Of a DNA stretch of 64,000 bases, positions 2,158-60,480 are shown piece after piece. Made by a program: the position numbers and the translations under genes. Numbering within the stretch: position 1 is the first letter of the stretch; the number at the start of each line of letters is the position of its first letter. The notes beneath the pieces are model-generated. The model was not told the origin of the DNA. It was given only the letters and a program-made list of their open reading frames with translations, and did not search any database. The stretch comes from Sulfurovum sp. (lineage in GTDB: Bacteria; Campylobacterota; Campylobacteria; Campylobacterales; Sulfurovaceae): NCBI GenBank assembly GCA_021647715.1, contig JAKIUE010000001.1, positions 11,285-75,284 on the forward strand, written 5' to 3'.

Positions 2158-3594
2158 CTAGTTTTGATAGAAATTAGGTAGATTTTTTATGTCTAGTGCT
2201 GAACCTTCTGAAAAATTGATATACGATGATACCTTGCTAATATCCCAATTATTCAATGGTTTATTGAAAGCTTCTGCATGGTAAAACATAAAAGAAAAAT
2301 TGATTACAGATGAAGTATCCCACTTTCCTATTGGTTGATTAAAAGAAATTGCATTAGTAAACATTTCAGACATATTAACCACTGATGAAGTGTTCCATTT
2401 TTCTATAGGGTGATTAAAGGCTGTTGCGAAACTGAACATAGCATTCATTTCTGTTACTGATGAAATATCCCACTTTCCAATTGGCTGGTTAAATGAGTCT
2501 GCATAAAAAAACATCTGGTTCATTTTTTTCACTGACGATGTATCCCAATTGCTAATATCTAAATTAAATTTTTGTAAAGTTTGTTTTTCAGAAAAACTTA
2601 AATCATTATACTCATAACCATAAAGATAAAATAAATCACTCATATCTGTAATTTTAGATGTATTTGCTGTGGTAAGTATATGTTCGTTTTTTTGACTTGG
2701 ATTTTTAGCCCAATTTTTAATATGCTGTACAAGCTCCTCTCTTATAAGTGTTTCATTGACAACATCTTCTACCACAATATTTCTACTAACTTCTTTTGCT
2801 TTATTTCCTGCTTCATCCTTAACATTATATGTAACAATATAACGTCCTGCAGTAGCAGTATCTACTAAATTAGTTATATGAATATTCTTTGTAATATTTC
2901 CATCAACCATATCAACGGCTGTAGCTCCTGCATCAGAATAAGTATCTCCCAAACTTAATCTTATCTTGCTTTTACCATGAAGTGTAATTATTGGCGAAAT
3001 AGTATCTATCTTCTTCTGAACTACCTCTTTTTTCTTTTGGGATACATCATCTCTTGATACTGAGGAATCACTTACATTTTTCACAGATAGCGAATAAAGG
3101 TGAGGGTTCCTCCAGGCTGTGTCCCCTCTCAATATAACATAAGTCAAGGGGCTTTTAGCTACAAAAGTAAAAACTTCTTCTATAGGTGTATCCCCTGTAA
3201 TACTTTTACTTTGCAGCATCTCATTTACACCATAAAACTTCGGGAGAGTATTAGATATTGCTATAATCGAAGCTCCATCAAAATTTTCATCACTTGAAGT
3301 ATCCGCACCAATTAATGTTGCTTTTACTCTATATGTTTCACCTTCTATAGTTTCAAAAGCCTGATAAATATAAGGATGCTTTTCATTACCTGTTAAGAGA
3401 TATAATTTATCTTTATAATTTCTTCGCATGTAGAAAGAACCTTTCCACTCCTGCTTATTGTCTTTGTCAATACTACTTCTAAATATACCATTTTCATTAT
3501 TTGCATTATAAATTAGTTCTACACCTTCACTTGCAAAAAGCATTGGCATTAAAAACAAAAATATTAAAAATCTTACGATTTGTAACTTTATCAT
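2158..3594 (-). CDS. Exported surface protein with a DUF5011/Ig-like domain and C-terminal DUF285 (BspA-like) repeats
   Basis: Signal peptide, then DTISPIITLHG...YIVTYNVKDEAGN (Ig-like), then about four 25-aa repeats of the form FNQPIGKWDISSVTEMNAMF. Confidence 0.85.
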   Translation of the reverse strand: MIKLQIVRFLIFLFLMPMLFASEGVELIYNANNENGIFRSSIDKDNKQEWKGSFYMRRNYKDKLYLLTGNEKHPYIYQAFETIEGETYRVKATLIGADTSSDENFDGASIIAISNTLPKFYGVNEMLQSKSITGDTPIEEVFTFVAKSPLTYVILRGDTAWRNPHLYSLSVKNVSDSSVSRDDVSQKKKEVVQKKIDTISPIITLHGKSKIRLSLGDTYSDAGATAVDMVDGNITKNIHITNLVDTATAGRYIVTYNVKDEAGNKAKEVSRNIVVEDVVNETLIREELVQHIKNWAKNPSQKNEHILTTANTSKITDMSDLFYLYGYEYNDLSFSEKQTLQKFNLDISNWDTSSVKKMNQMFFYADSFNQPIGKWDISSVTEMNAMFSFATAFNHPIEKWNTSSVVNMSEMFTNAISFNQPIGKWDTSSVINFSFMFYHAEAFNKPLNNWDISKVSSYINFSEGSALDIKNLPNFYQN

Positions 3595-55873: not shown

Positions 55874-56137
55874 ATGGCAGAAAGAAGAAAGTTTAAAAAG
55901 AGATTTTGTAAATATTGTGAGCAAAAAGTTGAGTTTATCGACTATAAAGACTTAGCAGGTCTTAAATTTTCACTCAGTGAAAGATTTAAAATCATGCCTA
56001 GAAGACTTACAGGTAACTGTAAACGTCACCAAGAGCTTGTAACTGTAGCTATCAAAAGAGCTAGACAAACAGCATTGATTCCGTACATCGTAGATAGAAA
56101 AAATGTTGTAGAAAACCCATTTGAAAATGTAAGATAG
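55874..56137 (+). CDS. rpsR: 30S ribosomal protein S18
   Basis: [16 protein letters not shown] and AIKRAR. Confidence 0.97.
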
Positions 56138-56161
56138 TCTAAAACTATTTTAACATACTAG

Positions 56162-56182
56162 GGGTCGATATAAATTGACCTC
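56162..56182. terminator. Hairpin downstream of rpsR
   Basis: GGGTCGAT-ATAA-ATTGACCT; imperfect stem with G-T pairs. Confidence 0.45.
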
Positions 56183-56271
56183 TACACTTTCGTGAAAACC
56201 ACAAACACCTTATCCGCTTCACCCAAATCATATAAATTCACATCATCGCTAGCTAATAACTCAAATCTAGA
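56181..56271 (-). pseudogene. Remnant second copy of the methyltransferase 3' end (att-like direct repeat, left copy)
   Basis: 56181-56247 is identical over 67 bp to 57379-57445. The next 24 bp encode a diverged version (SRFELLAS versus SGLELVAN). Confidence 0.9.
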
Positions 56272-56401
56272 GTATTACACTTAAAGCTACAGCTTAGCAG
56301 AAATTGGCACTTGTTACTTTGGAGTTACAAGATGACTTAGGATTACGTTCATCTGACTCCTATGCCTTTTATTTTCATCATATTTCTATACTATAAATTG
56401 T

Positions 56402-56590
56402 CTATTTTCTCAGCAACTCGTCCCAAATTATATATGCACCATATAAAATAAAAGCTGATAGTATCAAAGATAATGTAAAATTAATTTCTATTTTTGATAC
56501 TCCAAAATAAATAGGTAGTGTTTGTGTAAATAGTATGCGGATACTACCGTATATTAATACTGCAATTATTAAATACCACATAATTCTCAT
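56402..56590 (-). CDS. Small two-TM hypothetical protein inside the repeat-flanked cassette
   Basis: 62 aa ORF with two hydrophobic segments; AAAGGAA upstream. Confidence 0.55.
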   Translation of the reverse strand: MRIMWYLIIAVLIYGSIRILFTQTLPIYFGVSKIEINFTLSLILSAFILYGAYIIWDELLRK

Positions 56591-56719
56591 AATTGATGAG
56601 TTCCTTTATCAAAAATCTTTCTTATTAAGTTTGTCATATCTTTTAAGATATCTATTGCTTTTTCAAATTTAATCGTATTTTCAAAAGAAAACAAAAGTAG
56701 CATTATCATCACCCTACTC

Positions 56720-57319
56720 TTACTTCCCTACTTCTATTTTTATTCTATCTCTAACTTTTTTAATATCATCATGATTAAATGCTCCATGATCTAAAATTGC
56801 ATCAGCAATAGATTTTAAAAAATCTTCGTATGAATCAGCCCAAACTCCCAATGTATCAAATTCTTGATAAAGATATAGTACCTGCCCATATTTCTCACCA
56901 ATATTTTCACGTAAATCTAATAAAGCCAACTCATCACAATTCCATGAATAAATCGGTATCCAAGCATTATCCCAAACAATGTCTTTAGGAAGAATTTTAG
57001 TGTCAATATGCTTATACGCAAATCCATCAAACATATATTCTTTAAAATCTTGATGTGATGTTTGAATTTCATCAATAGTATAAAGTGTACCTCCTCCCCC
57101 TATCATAAAACATGAGCTCTTAATAACATTTGTTGGTTCAAGAGGATATGCATTACATCTTTTAAGTCTCTCTTTAAAGTCACTTGGAAGTTTAATTTGC
57201 AAATATTCTTCAAGCTCTAAAATCTCTTTTTCTGTTGCATTATTACATCCAACAAAATTTGTCTCAAAAGTTTTCCAATACTTAAATAAAGTATCCCATA
57301 TAATCTCAATTTTACTCAT
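56720..57319 (-). CDS. SMI1/KNR4 (SUKH) family protein
   Basis: GCNNATEKEILELEEYLQIKLPSDF, WIPI, LLDL...GQVL and WADSYEDFL. AAGGAG RBS. Confidence 0.88.
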   Translation of the reverse strand: MSKIEIIWDTLFKYWKTFETNFVGCNNATEKEILELEEYLQIKLPSDFKERLKRCNAYPLEPTNVIKSSCFMIGGGGTLYTIDEIQTSHQDFKEYMFDGFAYKHIDTKILPKDIVWDNAWIPIYSWNCDELALLDLRENIGEKYGQVLYLYQEFDTLGVWADSYEDFLKSIADAILDHGAFNHDDIKKVRDRIKIEVGK

Positions 57320-57378
57320 TAAAACTCCTTTATATAGTAGACTATTCCATTGTCCTGATTTTCTCTATTGAATTAACT

Positions 57379-57445
57379 TCTACACTTTCGTGAAAACCAC
57401 AAACACCTTATCCGCTTCACCCAAATCATATAAATTCACATCATC
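57379..57445 (-). repeat. Right copy of the 67 bp direct repeat (3' end of the intact methyltransferase)
   Basis: Exact match to 56181-56247. Confidence 0.92.
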
Positions 57446-58084
57446 ATTTGCTACCAGTTCTAACCCAGACAGTTTTACCAACGCTTCTACACTATGATAG
57501 TATTGTCTAATCGTCTCTTGAGACTTTTTAAAACAACCTGCTTCTTTCTCAAAGAGTGTAAACTCAGATATATATTCACCATTTTCAAAATCGCTATCTA
57601 CGGTGAGAAATCTATCTTCATCATCTACGATGAAAGAGCCTACTGCTACATTTTCAAACCCATATAATGTGTTGATGTCACAGAGGAATAAGCCTCCATC
57701 ATTTAAATGCTCATACACACAAGCTAAAAATTGCTGAAGAGCCTCCTTAGTGAGATAATTTAGCATATCAAAAACAGCTGTAATCACATCATATTTCTCT
57801 TCTAAGTCACAAAGGTCTACAGAGGTAGCATCTATACCTTTTGACGCTGTTTTAGAGACCATCAGAGGGCTTAAATCGATACCTTTTACTTCTGGTATAT
57901 CTAAAGCTTGTTGCATTTGGAACAAAAAGTCTCCAGAGCCACAACCTACATCGAGTAAGCTATCAAACGCTATAGGACTTAAAAAAAGGAGGTAATGGGC
58001 ATAGAGACTAGGTGCAGCCTCTTTTACCCCAAGTAGATCCTCTACTTTTGCATACAGATCAAGAGAGTCGTGAGTGTTAGGCAT
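57380..58084 (-). CDS. Class I SAM-dependent methyltransferase
   Basis: LLDVGCGSG, DLSP.M, FDMLNY and GGLFLCD. Confidence 0.9.
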   Translation of the reverse strand: MPNTHDSLDLYAKVEDLLGVKEAAPSLYAHYLLFLSPIAFDSLLDVGCGSGDFLFQMQQALDIPEVKGIDLSPLMVSKTASKGIDATSVDLCDLEEKYDVITAVFDMLNYLTKEALQQFLACVYEHLNDGGLFLCDINTLYGFENVAVGSFIVDDEDRFLTVDSDFENGEYISEFTLFEKEAGCFKKSQETIRQYYHSVEALVKLSGLELVANDDVNLYDLGEADKVFVVFTKV

Positions 58085-58698: not shown

Positions 58699-59325
58699 TT
58701 ATTCCTTAATCACTTTTATCATTCCTTGAAAGACAAGAGTTTCATCATAAAGTGCACCATCAAAAAATGTGGATAAAAACGCACCATCCCCACCTGTAAA
58801 GTAAAGTTGTTTTGTATCACTATGTTTTTCTATAAGTGCTTTAATAGACGCGATTATACCATAGCTTATCTGCTCTTTTGTTGTAAAAGGAAGTCCATCT
58901 AAATCTATTGATTTGTCTAAATAAGTGTCTAATGCGGGAGATATTTTTTTATACATTTGTATATATCCTTTTAGACCTGGCAAGATAAACCCTCCTTTAT
59001 ATTCTCCTTTTTCTACAACGTCGACAGTAATCGCAGACCCTGCATCTATAAAAATACCACTTGTATGGCTTAGGCAAAGTGCTTTTCTATCTACACCCAT
59101 CGTCTCATAATAGCCCTCTAGTCTCAAAGAAGAAGATATATTTTTCCATATTTTTAACTGAGAAATGTTATGGGAGAGTTGCTCTTTCACGGAAATATAA
59201 TATAAAGAAATATCTTTATATTTTTCTATTGCCTCAGCATGTGAAATATGCTCTACTTTCTTTCCATCATATATATGAACATACGTGTTACCAATATCAG
59301 CTAATATTAAATTACCCTTCATCAT
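58699..59325 (-). CDS. coaX: Type III pantothenate kinase
   Basis: LADIGNT, GVDR, IDAGSAITVD, GGFILPG and TGGDG. Start set at ATG 59325. Confidence 0.92.
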   Translation of the reverse strand: MMKGNLILADIGNTYVHIYDGKKVEHISHAEAIEKYKDISLYYISVKEQLSHNISQLKIWKNISSSLRLEGYYETMGVDRKALCLSHTSGIFIDAGSAITVDVVEKGEYKGGFILPGLKGYIQMYKKISPALDTYLDKSIDLDGLPFTTKEQISYGIIASIKALIEKHSDTKQLYFTGGDGAFLSTFFDGALYDETLVFQGMIKVIKE

Positions 59326-59641
59326 ATACTTTCCATCCATTCTCTTCAAGCAATAACTTTGCCTTTGAACACAAAGGTGCCTTAATAATGATATACTTTT
59401 TTTTGATGACAGTATCAATATATTTTTCTAACTTTTCATGCAATAACATAAGTTCTGTAACTTCCTTACGTAGTACCCTACTTTTTTTTTCAACCTGCAT
59501 CACATCAACATAATATCCTTTTAAATCTACACCTAAATAAATATCTACTTTTTTACGTGAGCCTAACTCTTTTGGTGTTATACTTTTTAATGATTTAAAA
59601 ATAATGTGTTTTTGTTGTAAATACTCTACTAAATTTTTCAT
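59312..59641 (-). CDS. Conserved hypothetical protein
   Basis: 109 aa ORF within the operon, overlapping the coaX start. Confidence 0.7.
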   Translation of the reverse strand: MKNLVEYLQQKHIIFKSLKSITPKELGSRKKVDIYLGVDLKGYYVDVMQVEKKSRVLRKEVTELMLLHEKLEKYIDTVIKKKYIIIKAPLCSKAKLLLEENGWKVYDEG

Positions 59642-59658
59642 TGCTTATCATACCTAAA

Positions 59659-60480
59659 TCAACGTAAAGGGTGAAACTGATTCATAGTATCAGCCAAGTT
59701 TTGTTTTTGTATATGTGTATAGATTTGTGTTGTCTCTAAAGAACTATGTCCCAGCAACTCTTGAACCACTCGTAAATCAGCTCCACCGATAATAAGCGAA
59801 GAAGCAAAAGAATGTCTCAATACATGGGGAGAAACACCCAAATACTTCTTTACAATTTTATATGCAGAAATACGAGAAAGTGGTTCTCCTCTATAGTTTA
59901 GCCACAAATAAGGACTGGACATTGTTTGCTCCAACAAATAGCGTTCAAGCGCTTGCGTAGCCACAGGTGCCAAGGGTACTACCCTCTCTTTCTCCCCTTT
60001 AGCAAAACGTATTTTAAGCCATCCTTCTACAATATCAGCACGCTGCACATTTAAAGCTTCACTTATACGGCAACCACTCGCATATAAGAAAAGTATGAGT
60101 GCATAGTCACGTAAGCCCATAAGTGTACTTCTATCTATCAGATTAATACCATCGAGTATCTCTTCATTATTTACATATTTTGGAAGGTTTTTAGGCACTT
60201 TTGCCATAGGTATTTTAATCTTTTCATGGGAAAAACTTTGCACATGACAAAAATTAAAAAAAACATTGATAGATGAAAGTTTTCGGTTGAGTGTTCTCTT
60301 ATTTTCAAAGGTTGCCAGAAATGCTAAAATATCTGTTGTATTTAGTTTTGTAAGAATTTTATTTGAATGATTCTCAAGTTGTTGTAAATCAGAAAGATAA
60401 GAAGATATAGTAAGAGTATCTAGTGCTTTTGTAACACTTAGATATTCTTCAAAAGCAACTAATAAATTACTCTTACTCAT
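59659..60480 (-). CDS. xerD: XerD-like tyrosine recombinase
   Basis: LYASGCRISE, KGEKERVVP and PHVLRHSFA...GADLRVVQELLGHSSLETTQIY. Sits within a housekeeping operon. Confidence 0.75.
   Translation of the reverse strand: MSKSNLLVAFEEYLSVTKALDTLTISSYLSDLQQLENHSNKILTKLNTTDILAFLATFENKRTLNRKLSSINVFFNFCHVQSFSHEKIKIPMAKVPKNLPKYVNNEEILDGINLIDRSTLMGLRDYALILFLYASGCRISEALNVQRADIVEGWLKIRFAKGEKERVVPLAPVATQALERYLLEQTMSSPYLWLNYRGEPLSRISAYKIVKKYLGVSPHVLRHSFASSLIIGGADLRVVQELLGHSSLETTQIYTHIQKQNLADTMNQFHPLR

What the first reader, a model, noticed from the sequence alone, without database searches (positions are those of the whole stretch)
56181..57445. Integrase-less 1.2 kb cassette flanked by an exact 67 bp duplication of a methyltransferase 3' end (attL/attR-like)
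Seen: 56181-56247 and 57379-57445 are identical. They cover the last codons and stop of the SAM methyltransferase (DDVNLYDLGEADKVFVVFTKV*). Beyond the identical core, the left copy continues for about 24 bp as a diverged in-frame homolog (SRFELLAS versus SGLELVAN), then hits a stop. Between the copies lie an SMI1/KNR4 gene and a small membrane ORF, with no recombinase. Established: elements that integrate into gene 3' ends duplicate and restore the target. Inference: the diverged flank suggests the incoming DNA carried the 3' end of this gene from a relative. This would be either a minimal cassette integrating into a protein-coding 3' end next to rpsR and mobilised in trans, or a reduced island. 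A XerD-like gene lies about 2.2 kb away but looks like housekeeping.
Basis: partly seen in the sequence, partly recalled or inferred. Interest (0 to 1): 0.75.

Follow-up and report, generated by a model that had tools for sequence, protein, structure and literature searches.

The report
Orphan immunity gene inserted behind methyltransferase
A 1.2-kb piece of foreign DNA carrying a lone toxin-immunity gene sits just behind a housekeeping methyltransferase gene of a vent bacterium (Sulfurovum), bracketed by a 67-base copy of that gene's end; it is a real one-off gene gain, probably made by ordinary recombination and not shown to be a mobile element.

Summary
Window 56181-56247 and 57379-57445 are identical (67 nt), inside a roughly 108-nt tract of homology.

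The insert is lineage-specific. About 19 of 29 related Sulfurovum rpsR/methyltransferase junctions are empty, including the closest relative at 90% nt identity. About ten carry unrelated cargo. Among 116 genomes of the genus, only this one has the tail twice on one contig.

The cargo is an orphan SUKH-1 (SMI1/KNR4) immunity gene. It keeps the last ~10 codons of an Rhs-type NucA/NucB DNase toxin gene, which this genome lacks. It also holds two doubtful small ORFs and a decayed end of a RAYT/IS200-like element.

All 13 mismatches in the homology tract lie outside the 67-nt core (P about 1e-6). The diverged edge of the left copy differs mostly by synonymous or conservative codon changes. So the incoming DNA carried another lineage's methyltransferase tail, and it recombined or was converted through the core. 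This is an insertion-duplication (Campbell-type) footprint.

The nearby XerD-like gene is a syntenic core gene. No integrase lies next to a copy of the core.

Interest is moderate to low.

The parts
55874..56137 (+). rpsR (ribosomal protein S18). It is the convergent neighbour that bounds the insertion site.
   Evidence: ORF. It is 90-100% identical to rpsR of congeners. PF01084 is assigned to the identical product.
56161..56182 (.). Native hairpin between the two convergent genes (GGGGTCGA-TATAAA-TTGACCTC). It now lies behind the pseudo-tail and no longer directly behind the methyltransferase.
   Evidence: Read from the sequence. The same GGGTCGA...TCGACCC hairpin follows the methyltransferase stop directly at empty sites L004, L065 and L071. 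The consensus terminator scan did not call it, because it lacks a T run.
56181..56247 (-). Left copy of the 67-nt core. It is a pseudo-tail holding the last 22 codons, the stop and 1 nt of the methyltransferase, with no gene body.
   Evidence: Identical to 57379-57445. tblastn matches methyltransferase residues 202-234.
56248..56271 (-). f3: a diverged in-frame continuation of the pseudo-tail (SRFELLAS). It is read as a remnant of a foreign lineage's methyltransferase tail.
   Evidence: 14/24 nt match the resident flank. The codon differences are GAA/GAG, CTG/TTA and GCA/GCT (synonymous) plus V/L and N/S. It matches the closest relative L050 at 15/24, against 21/24 for the resident flank, and no sampled lineage exceeds 15/24. 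It is not derived from the RAYT gene (7/37).
56266..56366 (+). Decayed 3' end (about 20 codons) and terminal repeat (GATTACGTTCATCTGACTCCTA, 56341-56366) of a RAYT/IS200-like element. It joins the pseudo-tail through a CTAGA overlap.
   Evidence: Local alignment to the 3' end of the intact copy at genome C1:16813-17586 and to its flanking repeat ACGATTACGTTCACCTGACCCCTA.
56402..56590 (-). 62-aa hydrophobic ORF. Its coding status is doubtful.
   Evidence: ORF. There is no Pfam hit and no homologue in 5.8 billion proteins.
56587..56712 (-). 41-aa ORF between the immunity gene and the hydrophobic ORF. Its coding status is doubtful.
   Evidence: ORF. There is no Pfam hit and no tblastn hit elsewhere.
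56720..57319 (-). Orphan SUKH-1 (SMI1/KNR4) immunity gene, 199 aa, with an AAGGAG ribosome-binding site.
   Evidence: PF09346, E = 2.2e-18. Homologues at 73-77% identity sit 10-12 nt behind a NucA/NucB DNase toxin or an Rhs toxin ending in the same domain. It was found in only 2 of 250 genomes of the family.
57320..57361 (-). Leader of the immunity gene. It includes a remnant of the last ~10 codons of the cognate toxin gene (..KSGQWNS..).
   Evidence: DNA homology to all SMI1 loci starts at 57361. Alignment to the toxin tails ..GFFNKSGQWNSVPKY* is.
57362..57378 (-). f1: the 17 nt after the stop (AAGTTAATTCAATAGAG). It is a weakly similar copy of the start of a methyltransferase-downstream region, and is the other edge of the incoming homology.
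   Evidence: 8/10 nt next to the core match the native flank. It scores 10/17 against the downstream flanks of L051, L004 and L065. This part is weak.
57379..57445 (-). Right copy of the 67-nt core. It is the functional end of the methyltransferase gene.
57380..58084 (-). Class I SAM-dependent methyltransferase. It is the last gene of the conserved recombinase / 109-aa ORF / coaX / hisG / methyltransferase row.
   Evidence: Pfam hits. Orthologues occur in 32 of 41 relatives. Synteny is shown.
59659..60480 (-). XerD-like tyrosine recombinase. It is a conserved core gene and not part of the insert.
   Evidence: PF00589, E = 1.5e-32. It is single-copy, 74-90% identical and in the same position in 23 of 24 congeners, and also in other genera.

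Best explanation
**What it is.** A single historical gain of about 1.2 kb of foreign, low-GC DNA at the convergent rpsR/methyltransferase junction of a Sulfurovum genome.

**The useful cargo.** It is an orphan SUKH-1 immunity gene against an Rhs-delivered NucA/NucB-type DNase. The gene was torn from its toxin gene and still carries that gene's last ~10 codons. The rest is debris: two doubtful small ORFs, and the decayed 3' end with the terminal repeat of a RAYT/IS200-like element.

**How it got in (inferred).**
- The incoming DNA also carried a fragment of about 108 nt from another Sulfurovum lineage. This fragment spans the methyltransferase tail and the start of the downstream region (f3, core, f1).
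- The DNA entered by host recombination through that homology. This is an insertion-duplication: either a Campbell-type single crossover of a circular form, or an ends-in event with gap repair.
- The 67 identical bases are the tract exchanged with, or copied from, the resident gene. The diverged edges are what is left of the incoming homologue.

**Consequences.**
- The methyltransferase stays intact.
- The immunity gene, for which no convincing promoter was found, ends up behind the hisG-methyltransferase operon and ahead of the native hairpin.
- A pseudo-tail is left next to rpsR.

**Shown:** the anatomy, the foreign origin, the empty sites, the orphan status and the mosaic of the repeat.

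**Inferred:** the recombination route, RecA dependence, arrival by natural transformation, and co-transcription.
For: **Insertion into a normally empty site**
- 10 of the 18 congener junctions that could be scored are empty.
- 9 of 10 contigs that carry the identical rpsR protein are empty.
- The closest relative, L050 at 90% nt identity, runs methyltransferase, hairpin, rpsR with no insert.

**Foreign origin**
- GC is 25-31% across the insert, against 35-39% for the flanks.
- The immunity gene occurs in 2 of 250 genomes of the family.

**Orphan immunity module**
- The domain is assigned by Pfam.
- Homologues sit directly behind DNase_NucA_NucB or Rhs toxins.
- The toxin-tail remnant is retained.
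- tblastn finds no such toxin domain in the genome.

**Recombination through the homology**
- All 13 mismatches lie outside the core, P about 1e-6.
- f3 differs from the resident sequence in a synonymous or conservative pattern. It matches the nearest relative far worse than the resident flank does.
- The homologous pieces are permuted: f1 lies at one end of the insert and f3 at the other. A single crossover of a circular form, or an ends-in event, produces exactly this arrangement.
- The fragment joins a RAYT remnant through a CTAGA overlap. This fits an earlier illegitimate capture of the fragment.

**No dedicated recombinase**
- The neighbouring Xer-like gene is a syntenic core gene.
- The genome's other three tyrosine recombinases lie on other contigs, and the genome holds no further copy of the core.

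**Other**
- ComEC is present.
- No terminator-like site lies between the methyltransferase stop and the immunity gene.
Against: - No read-level or population evidence is available. No conspecific genome or contig was found, so neither the event nor its direction can be dated or seen in action.
- A simple single crossover with a uniformly diverged homologue would not give two identical cores. The model therefore needs an extra step, and that step is unobserved. It could be gap repair or conversion, or an earlier integration-excision cycle in this species.
- 67 nt is near the lower limit for efficient RecA-dependent exchange.
- The f1 edge is short (8/10 to 10/17) and could be chance.
- A fixed-site recombinase acting in trans cannot be excluded from sequence alone.
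Confidence: 0.55

Rival explanations
1. It is a CIME-like element: an integrase-less remnant or satellite flanked by attL and attR. It would be integrated, and could be excised, by a tyrosine or serine recombinase supplied in trans by a related element that targets the methyltransferase 3' end. Phage 21 and e14 at icd, and ICESt1/CIME at fda, work this way.
For: - A direct repeat ends one base after the stop codon and restores the gene.
- The element-side copy carries diverged target-like sequence.
- The genome encodes two phage-type integrases and a second Xer-like protein elsewhere.
Against: - No third copy of the core lies anywhere in the genome, so no resident element shares the att site.
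- None of 116 genomes of the genus, and none of about 29 sampled junctions, shows a tail duplication or an integrase at this site.
- Target-like homology on both sides of the identical block is what a captured homology segment would give. The arm regions of an attP would not be expected to resemble the target (own reasoning).
- The adjacent Xer-like gene is a core gene.
Confidence: 0.13
2. It is a tail displacement by one-sided homologous plus illegitimate recombination of linear transforming DNA (homology-facilitated illegitimate recombination). A donor fragment [methyltransferase 3' part, cargo] crossed over inside the gene. Its far end joined illegitimately about 90 nt before the resident stop, which pushed the old tail downstream. 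Rhs and CDI C-terminal displacement works in this way.
For: - The architecture is [gene with tail][immunity gene][orphan tail fragment], the same as in displaced toxin-CT/immunity arrays. The cargo itself comes from such a system.
- Identity of the gene to the closest relative drops from 97% to about 82% for the last ~140 nt. This hints at a breakpoint inside the gene.
- ComEC is present.
- Homology-facilitated illegitimate recombination is documented in natural transformation (PMC3410848). Mosaic outcomes of transformation are also documented (PMC13344027).
Against: - This model makes the left copy, including f3, the native tail. Yet f3 matches the nearest relative at only 15/24, while the right-hand flank matches at 21/24.
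- It also needs donor and recipient to be identical over exactly the 67 nt and strongly diverged right next to them.
Confidence: 0.17
3. It is an assembly artefact of a metagenome-assembled genome. The true molecules could be an empty chromosome plus a separate 1.2-kb circle or another strain's segment. These would have been joined wrongly through the 67-nt shared sequence.
For: - The genome is a 166-contig draft with 2.8% estimated contamination.
- A 67-nt repeat is unresolved in de Bruijn graphs with k below 67. The integrated form, and the empty site plus a circle, use the same graph edges.
- Reads could not be checked.
Against: - Both junction sequences (f3-core and core-f1) must exist in real molecules.
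- 67 is not a usual k-mer size.
- Reads of 100-150 nt span the repeat.
- A 1.2-kb circle without a replication gene would not persist. If it did exist, it would be the excised form of this same element.
Confidence: 0.07
4. It is an old insertion whose pseudo-tail was once fully diverged, or was once a longer second gene copy. The two copies were later homogenised over 67 nt by intrachromosomal gene conversion. On this reading the repeat says nothing about how the DNA entered.
For: - The mismatch-free core has sharply diverged edges.
- The core corresponds to the most conserved part of the protein tail among orthologues.
- Other short duplicated gene ends in this genome show decay and internal deletion, for example C89.
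Against: - Conversion between repeats of about 100 nt that started at roughly 60-80% identity should be rare.
- It overlaps with the best explanation, since it is one of the routes that model allows to the identical core. It still needs a methyltransferase-like fragment in the incoming DNA.
Confidence: 0.08

Closest known systems
Orphan immunity genes of polymorphic toxin systems (SUKH/SMI1-KNR4 immunity to Rhs and T6SS nucleases; acquired interbacterial defence, AID/rAID, in Bacteroidales; PMC3482391, PMC12247911)
   Same: - A SUKH-1 immunity gene without its toxin.
- A remnant of the toxin's 3' end upstream.
- Low GC.
- Close homologues directly behind Rhs or NucA/NucB toxins.
- A presumed role in protecting against neighbours' toxins.
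   Different: - It is a single gene, not an array.
- There is no dedicated recombinase and no conserved intergenic motif was seen.
- It is inserted behind a housekeeping operon, with a duplication of that operon's last gene end.
- The host is a vent-dwelling member of the Campylobacterota, not a gut Bacteroidales.
Cis-mobilizable elements (CIMEs) and decayed islands at gene 3' ends (ICESt1/ICESt3 at fda, PMC5704250 and PMC6323972; phage 21 and e14 at icd, from my own knowledge)
   Same: - It is integrase-less.
- It is bounded by direct repeats that cover the 3' end of a conserved protein gene, and the gene is restored.
- The element-side copy differs from the resident one outside an identical block.
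   Different: - No cognate integrase-bearing element or shared att site was found in this genome or in 116 congeners.
- The homology looks like a captured gene fragment with diverged edges on both sides of the core.
- It is only 1.2 kb, and this is a single occurrence.
Insertion-duplication by Campbell-type or ends-in homologous recombination. This covers integrative plasmids and gapped-plasmid repair (classical genetics, from my own knowledge), and additive integration during natural transformation (homology-facilitated illegitimate recombination, PMC3410848)
   Same: - The insert is flanked by a direct duplication of the targeting homology.
- The foreign edges are permuted.
- The central tract is identical to the chromosome, as after gap repair.
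- No element-encoded enzyme is required.
   Different: - This is a natural case with only about 108 nt of homology, of which 67 nt are identical.
- Where the circular or permuted donor molecule came from is unknown.
- Nothing has been demonstrated experimentally.
C-terminal (3'-end) displacement in Rhs, CDI and MafB loci
   Same: - The order is [gene with tail][immunity gene][displaced tail fragment].
- The cargo derives from an Rhs-CT/immunity pair.
   Different: - The carrier gene is a methyltransferase, not a toxin.
- The displaced fragment, not the functional tail, carries the foreign-looking flank.

Membership tests
Orphan immunity module of a polymorphic (Rhs) toxin system | The protein belongs to a recognised immunity family (SUKH-1 / SMI1_KNR4). 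| tested here: met
   PF09346, E = 2.2e-18, 67.5 bits against a cut-off of 25.4.
Orphan immunity module of a polymorphic (Rhs) toxin system | Close homologues lie immediately downstream of a toxin gene. | tested here: met
   In L044/L045 (77% aa identity) the gene lies 10 nt behind a 206-aa DNase_NucA_NucB protein. In L048 (73%) it lies 12 nt behind an Rhs-repeat protein ending in the same domain.
Orphan immunity module of a polymorphic (Rhs) toxin system | No cognate toxin in the same genome (orphan status), and often a remnant of the toxin's 3' end. | tested here: met
   tblastn with both toxins finds only Rhs core repeats and no NucA/NucB C-terminal domain. The toxin-tail remnant KSGQWNS lies at 57361-57340.
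Orphan immunity module of a polymorphic (Rhs) toxin system | The protein neutralises the toxin. | not testable with these tools
   This needs co-expression of the immunity gene with the L044-type DNase.
CIME / att-flanked integrase-less element | It is flanked by direct repeats at the 3' end of a conserved gene, the gene is restored, and it carries no integrase or transfer genes. | tested here: met
CIME / att-flanked integrase-less element | The repeats are att sites of a cognate integrase-bearing element that uses the same target. | tested here: not met
   The genome holds only two copies of the core, and none is near its four tyrosine recombinases. No tail duplication or integrase was seen at this junction in about 29 sampled loci or in 116 genomes of the genus. 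Absence from these samples is not proof.
CIME / att-flanked integrase-less element | It excises as a circle when the integrase is supplied. | not testable with these tools
This needs an experiment.
rAID (recombinase-associated acquired interbacterial defence) | A dedicated tyrosine recombinase heads the locus. | tested here: not met
   The nearby recombinase is a single-copy syntenic core gene in 23 of 24 congeners, with or without cargo. coaX, hisG and the methyltransferase separate it from the insert.
rAID (recombinase-associated acquired interbacterial defence) | An array of two or more co-oriented orphan immunity genes with conserved intergenic motifs (definition in PMC12247911). | tested here: not met
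   There is one immunity gene. The other ORFs have no homologues. No repeated intergenic motif was found.
REP/RAYT or IS200/IS605-type mobilised segment | The segment is bounded on both sides by the element's terminal hairpin or repeat. A target duplication is not expected. | tested here: not met
   There is only one decayed terminal repeat, at 56341-56366, and none at the other end. A 67-nt duplication is not a product of this chemistry (own knowledge).
Insertion-duplication (Campbell-type or ends-in) product | The insert is flanked by direct copies of the homology, and the foreign parts of the homology lie on the insert-proximal sides. | tested here: met
   f3 (56248-56271) and f1 (57362-57378) face the insert. 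Native sequence lies on the outer sides.
Insertion-duplication (Campbell-type or ends-in) product | A circular or permuted donor molecule, and dependence on host homologous recombination. | not testable with these tools
   No reads were available. A scan of JGI metagenome contigs for a 28-mer from the core found nothing.

The most novel reading that the evidence does not exclude
The 1,198-nt unit may be an active, recombinase-less homing cassette.

- A small circle would use a captured 108-nt piece of a housekeeping gene's tail as its attachment site.
- It would integrate and excise by host homologous recombination at the 67-nt core.
- It would spread between Sulfurovum cells by natural transformation.

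On this reading the mosaic repeat (foreign edges, native core) records at least one earlier integration-excision cycle in this species. The cassette would then belong to a wider, undescribed class of gene-tail-homing mini-cassettes that carry orphan immunity or defence genes. Earlier unchecked notes of this scan describe similar units at ftsY, yjbQ and comM. Such cassettes may be seeded by RAYT/REP-associated breakage next to immunity modules.
Probability: 0.12. Interest if true: 0.7.

Novelty: new member of a known kind. Interest (0 to 1): 0.35.

Why it matters
If the best reading holds, this is a clean natural example of how a promoter-less orphan immunity gene can be added to the end of a housekeeping operon without damaging it. 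It would need only a short captured stretch of homology and the host's own recombination.

- It bears on how defence against neighbours' toxins spreads in vent communities that carry Rhs loci.
- It shows that an attL/attR-like repeat does not by itself prove an integrase-driven element.
- It would matter more if circles or polymorphic occupancy were found. Then it would be evidence for recombinase-less homing cassettes.

As it stands it is a single, well-documented gene gain at a known kind of hotspot.

Tried and rejected
- **Search for conspecific DNA.**
  - A 28-mer from the core gave 0 hits in JGI metagenome contigs.
  - An exact hisG look-up found nothing.
  - The best methyltransferase hit is 90% identical, on a 1.2-kb contig that shows an empty site.
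- **The cassette elsewhere.**
  - Metagenome and genome scans with the immunity protein, and then with an alignment of it, gave only 3 contigs and one 58% relative.
  - DNA homology is limited to 57361 to about 56730.
  - The hydrophobic ORF has no homologue.
- **XerD-like gene as the responsible recombinase, or an rAID-like locus.** Rejected. It is a syntenic core gene.
- **A general 'gene-tail duplication' process in this genome.**
  - A self-comparison gave candidates on C44, C89, C150, C154 and C1.
  - Both C44 repeats lie inside a 2.6-kb accessory island that congeners lack.
  - The C89 fragment is a decayed paralogue piece.
  - The generalisation was therefore dropped.
- **Tandem rpsR copies in G006 and G016 as analogous cassettes.** Rejected. 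They are whole-gene duplicates, each with its own leader, in a clade where rpsR is separated from rpsF-ssb. Part of the G016 structure is a scaffold gap.
- **f3 as part of the RAYT remnant.** Rejected, 7/37.
- **A donor lineage for f3 and f1.** None of 43 sampled loci matches better than 15/24.
- **RNA or tRNA target.** There is no Rfam family and no tRNA.
- **Hairpin in the non-coding part of the insert.** Not significant, z = -1.4.
Full report
**1. The observation**

- The two 67-nt stretches, 56181-56247 and 57379-57445, are identical, and the exact match does not extend on either side.
- Weaker similarity continues on both sides. The repeat finder gives 99 nt at 88%.
- The whole draft genome is G000, with 166 contigs and 97% completeness. 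The window is contig C25. It contains only these two copies.
- The right copy is the real end of a 234-aa class I SAM methyltransferase at 57380-58084, minus strand (Methyltransf_25, E = 5.6e-13).
- The core covers the last 22 codons, the stop codon and one more base.
- The left copy is a body-less pseudo-tail. It continues in frame for 8 codons, SRFELLAS against SGLELVAN, and has a TAA two codons further up.
- Between the copies lie three ORFs:
  - a 199-aa SMI1_KNR4 / SUKH-1 gene (PF09346, E = 2.2e-18);
  - a 41-aa ORF;
  - a 62-aa hydrophobic ORF with no family and no homologue.

**2. Setting**

- Source names attached to homologues place the genome in Sulfurovum, a hydrothermal-vent member of the Campylobacterota.
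- The plus strand carries rpsF-ssb-rpsR.
- The minus strand carries a conserved row: 335-aa protein, XerD-like recombinase, 109-aa ORF, coaX, hisG, methyltransferase.
- rpsR and the methyltransferase converge.

**3. Is the insert lineage-specific?** Yes.

- Of the 18 congener loci whose junction could be scored, 10 have rpsR and the methyltransferase 50-90 nt apart.
- Nine of ten further contigs that encode the identical rpsR protein are also empty.
- The closest relative found is L050, at 90% nt identity over hisG and the methyltransferase. It runs from the methyltransferase through a hairpin straight into the rpsR end.
- At empty sites the methyltransferase stop is followed directly by a hairpin, often GGGTCGA..TCGACCC. 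In the window the same hairpin, at 56161-56182, follows the left pseudo-tail.
- The DNA was therefore inserted between the gene and its native hairpin.
- About ten junctions are occupied by unrelated cargo:
  - a protein with a Fic-type HPxxxGNGR motif in G017;
  - a transporter-like gene cluster with a putative molybdopterin oxidoreductase in G016, named from the translated sequences only;
  - lipoprotein and subtilase-like genes in G004, G005, G013 and G015;
  - M6 and M4 peptidases in L072;
  - a 109-aa ORF in L051.
- None of these shows any duplication of the methyltransferase or rpsR tail flanking the cargo.
- A search of 116 genomes of the genus with the tail DNA found two copies on one contig only in this genome.
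- The junction is thus a general hotspot for accessory DNA. The tail duplication is unique to this genome.

**4. What the cargo is**

- The insert has 25-31% GC, against 35-39% around it.
- The immunity gene is rare. It occurs in 2 of 250 genomes of the family, and about ten 90%-identity clusters were found among 5.8 billion proteins.
- In L044/L045 (77% identity) its homologue follows a 206-aa DNase_NucA_NucB protein after 10 nt.
- In L048 (73% identity) it follows an Rhs-repeat protein whose C-terminus is the same DNase domain.
- DNA similarity between the window and all these loci starts at 57361, 42 nt before the ATG, and ends near the stop codon.
- The upstream part aligns to the last codons of the toxin genes..GFFNKSGQWNSVPKY* against ..KSGQWNSLLYK in the window.
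- The genome has Rhs loci but no NucA/NucB toxin domain.
- The cargo is therefore an orphan immunity module torn from an Rhs-CT/immunity pair.
- Orphan copies in two other contexts keep the same truncated toxin tail. These are L041, behind a DUF445 gene, and L056, behind an ABC-F gene. There the tail abuts the terminal repeat (..CACCTGACCCCTA..) of a RAYT/IS200-like element.
- In the window a decayed copy of that element's last ~20 codons and terminal repeat lies at the other end of the insert, at 56266-56366 on the plus strand. It aligns to the intact copy at C1:16813-17586.
- This remnant meets the pseudo-tail through a CTAGA overlap.

**5. What the repeat says about the mechanism**

- The homology tract has three parts, read in the sense of the gene:
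  - f3, 24 nt, 14 of 24 matching;
  - the core, 67 of 67 matching;
  - f1, with 8 of the first 10 nt matching, and weaker similarity over about 17 nt.
- If the 13 mismatches in the 101 aligned positions were spread at random, a clean run of 67 would occur about once in a million trials. The core has therefore been exchanged or converted.
- f3 differs from the resident sequence at the codon level by GAA/GAG, CTG/TTA and GCA/GCT (synonymous), V/L and N/S (conservative), and G/R and L/F. This is the pattern of a gene that diverged under selection, not of chance similarity or decay.
- f3 matches the nearest relative at 15/24, while the resident flank matches at 21/24. No sampled lineage matches f3 better than 15/24.
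- f3 is not derived from the RAYT gene.
- Both foreign edges face the insert, and native sequence lies outside them. This permuted arrangement is what a single crossover of a circular molecule leaves, or an ends-in event of a molecule broken within its homology.
- A plain single crossover with a uniformly diverged homologue would leave one diverged core, so one more step is needed. Three options fit:
  - repair of a gap from the chromosome during ends-in integration;
  - later conversion between the two copies;
  - an earlier integration and excision in the same species at different crossover points, which gives exactly a foreign-native-foreign mosaic.
- I cannot tell these apart.
- The CTAGA overlap between the fragment and the RAYT remnant fits an earlier illegitimate event that captured the ~108-nt tail fragment together with the cargo. 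This is inference.

**6. Recombinases**

- The XerD-like gene, 2.2 kb away, is single-copy and 74-90% identical in 23 of 24 congeners. It is more conserved than the methyltransferase itself.
- It sits in the same position in those congeners and in several other genera, whether the site is empty or occupied.
- The genome has three more tyrosine recombinases, on contigs C116, C112 and C38. The genome holds no further copy of the core, so none of them is associated with one.
- ComEC is present. That is weak support for DNA uptake.

**7. Expression (inferred)**

- The immunity gene has an AAGGAG site.
- The promoter-like matches are no more numerous than in shuffled sequence.
- No terminator-like site lies between it and the methyltransferase stop.
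- It is probably read through from the hisG-methyltransferase transcript.

**8. Comparison with known systems**

- The cargo meets all testable criteria for an orphan immunity gene of a polymorphic toxin system.
- The locus is not an rAID system. It has no dedicated recombinase, no array and no intergenic motif (definition in PMC12247911).
- It looks like a CIME or a decayed island at a gene's 3' end, but the defining cognate integrase and shared att site were not found.
- It works most like an insertion-duplication by host recombination, and its layout also recalls C-terminal displacement in Rhs loci.
- Earlier notes of this scan describe comparable integrase-less units with short gene-tail duplications in other phyla, and SUKH genes in REP/RAYT nests. 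They are unchecked leads.
- The SUKH-RAYT adjacency is seen here again, in L041, L056 and the window.

**9. Verdict**

This is a real, foreign, tail-restoring insertion with an imported gene-tail fragment, and the nearby recombinase is housekeeping.
- Nothing shows that it is a mobile cassette or that the repeats are att sites. It is a single occurrence, and the read test could not be run.
- My best explanation, at confidence 0.55, is a one-off homology-mediated insertion-duplication that brought in an orphan Rhs-DNase immunity gene.
- The rivals are:
  - tail displacement by homology-facilitated illegitimate recombination (0.17);
  - a CIME-like element served in trans (0.13);
  - later gene conversion of an old insert (0.08);
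  - misassembly (0.07).
- Interest is 0.35.

Noticed in passing
Genome contigs C1:15421-17618 and C75:4041-7507; window 56266-56366: A family of RAYT/IS200-like genes (Y1 transposase fold plus a C-terminal HTH, 257-402 aa) is flanked by inverted terminal repeats ACGATTACGTTCACCTGACCCCTA. Solo ends are scattered over the genome. On C1, a 133-nt copy of the gene's tail plus repeat lies 2 kb upstream of the full gene, with two unrelated ORFs in between.
   Followed up: partly
L041:4440-5213 and L056:2780-3450: Two orphan copies of the same immunity module lie in different genomic contexts. Both share the identical junction 'RAYT terminal repeat | last 12 codons of the toxin gene'. This suggests that the module has travelled together with, or been broken off at, the end of a RAYT element.
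   Followed up: partly
L035 (G006:C3) 2343-3391; L034 (G016:C23); In one Sulfurovum clade rpsR lies 43-53 kb (G006, G016), or on a different contig (G017), from ssb. It sits directly behind a leader of the type found upstream of rpsF. In G006 and G016 it is present as two full tandem copies about 97% identical. Part of the G016 structure is a scaffold gap.
   Followed up: partly
Window 57380-57700 against L050: Identity of the methyltransferase to its closest relative drops from about 97% (57522-57700) to about 82% (57380-57520). This may be a recombination breakpoint inside the gene, about 75 nt upstream of the core.
   Followed up: no
Genome contigs C89:2296-4044, C150:20983-21837, C154:7531-9777, C44:2588-3887: Other short direct repeats (57-155 nt, 86-97% identical) cover gene ends and bracket 0.7-2 kb of genes. 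C89 holds a NifU-like tail fragment with an internal deletion. C150 holds the 5' end of a flippase-like gene around an ORF6N gene. The C44 pair lies inside a 2.6-kb accessory island that congeners lack.
   Followed up: partly
Genome contigs C156:19100-23671, C12, C30, C49, C27: Rhs core-end fragments are repeated in tandem with small downstream genes. These are typical orphan Rhs-CT/immunity arrays. None carries the NucA/NucB domain that matches the immunity gene in the window.
   Followed up: no
L033 6321-7430, L034 2310-8969, L072 4441-8185, L051 919-1248: The same rpsR/methyltransferase junction holds quite different cargo in other Sulfurovum lineages, in no case with flanking repeats. The cargo includes a protein with a Fic-type motif, a transporter-like cluster with a putative molybdopterin oxidoreductase, M6/M4 peptidases and a 109-aa ORF. 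Only the peptidases have Pfam calls.
   Followed up: partly
Window 59312-59641: A 109-aa ORF without any Pfam family lies between the Xer-like recombinase and coaX. It is conserved in position and size (109-112 aa) in every Sulfurovum contig examined.
   Followed up: no
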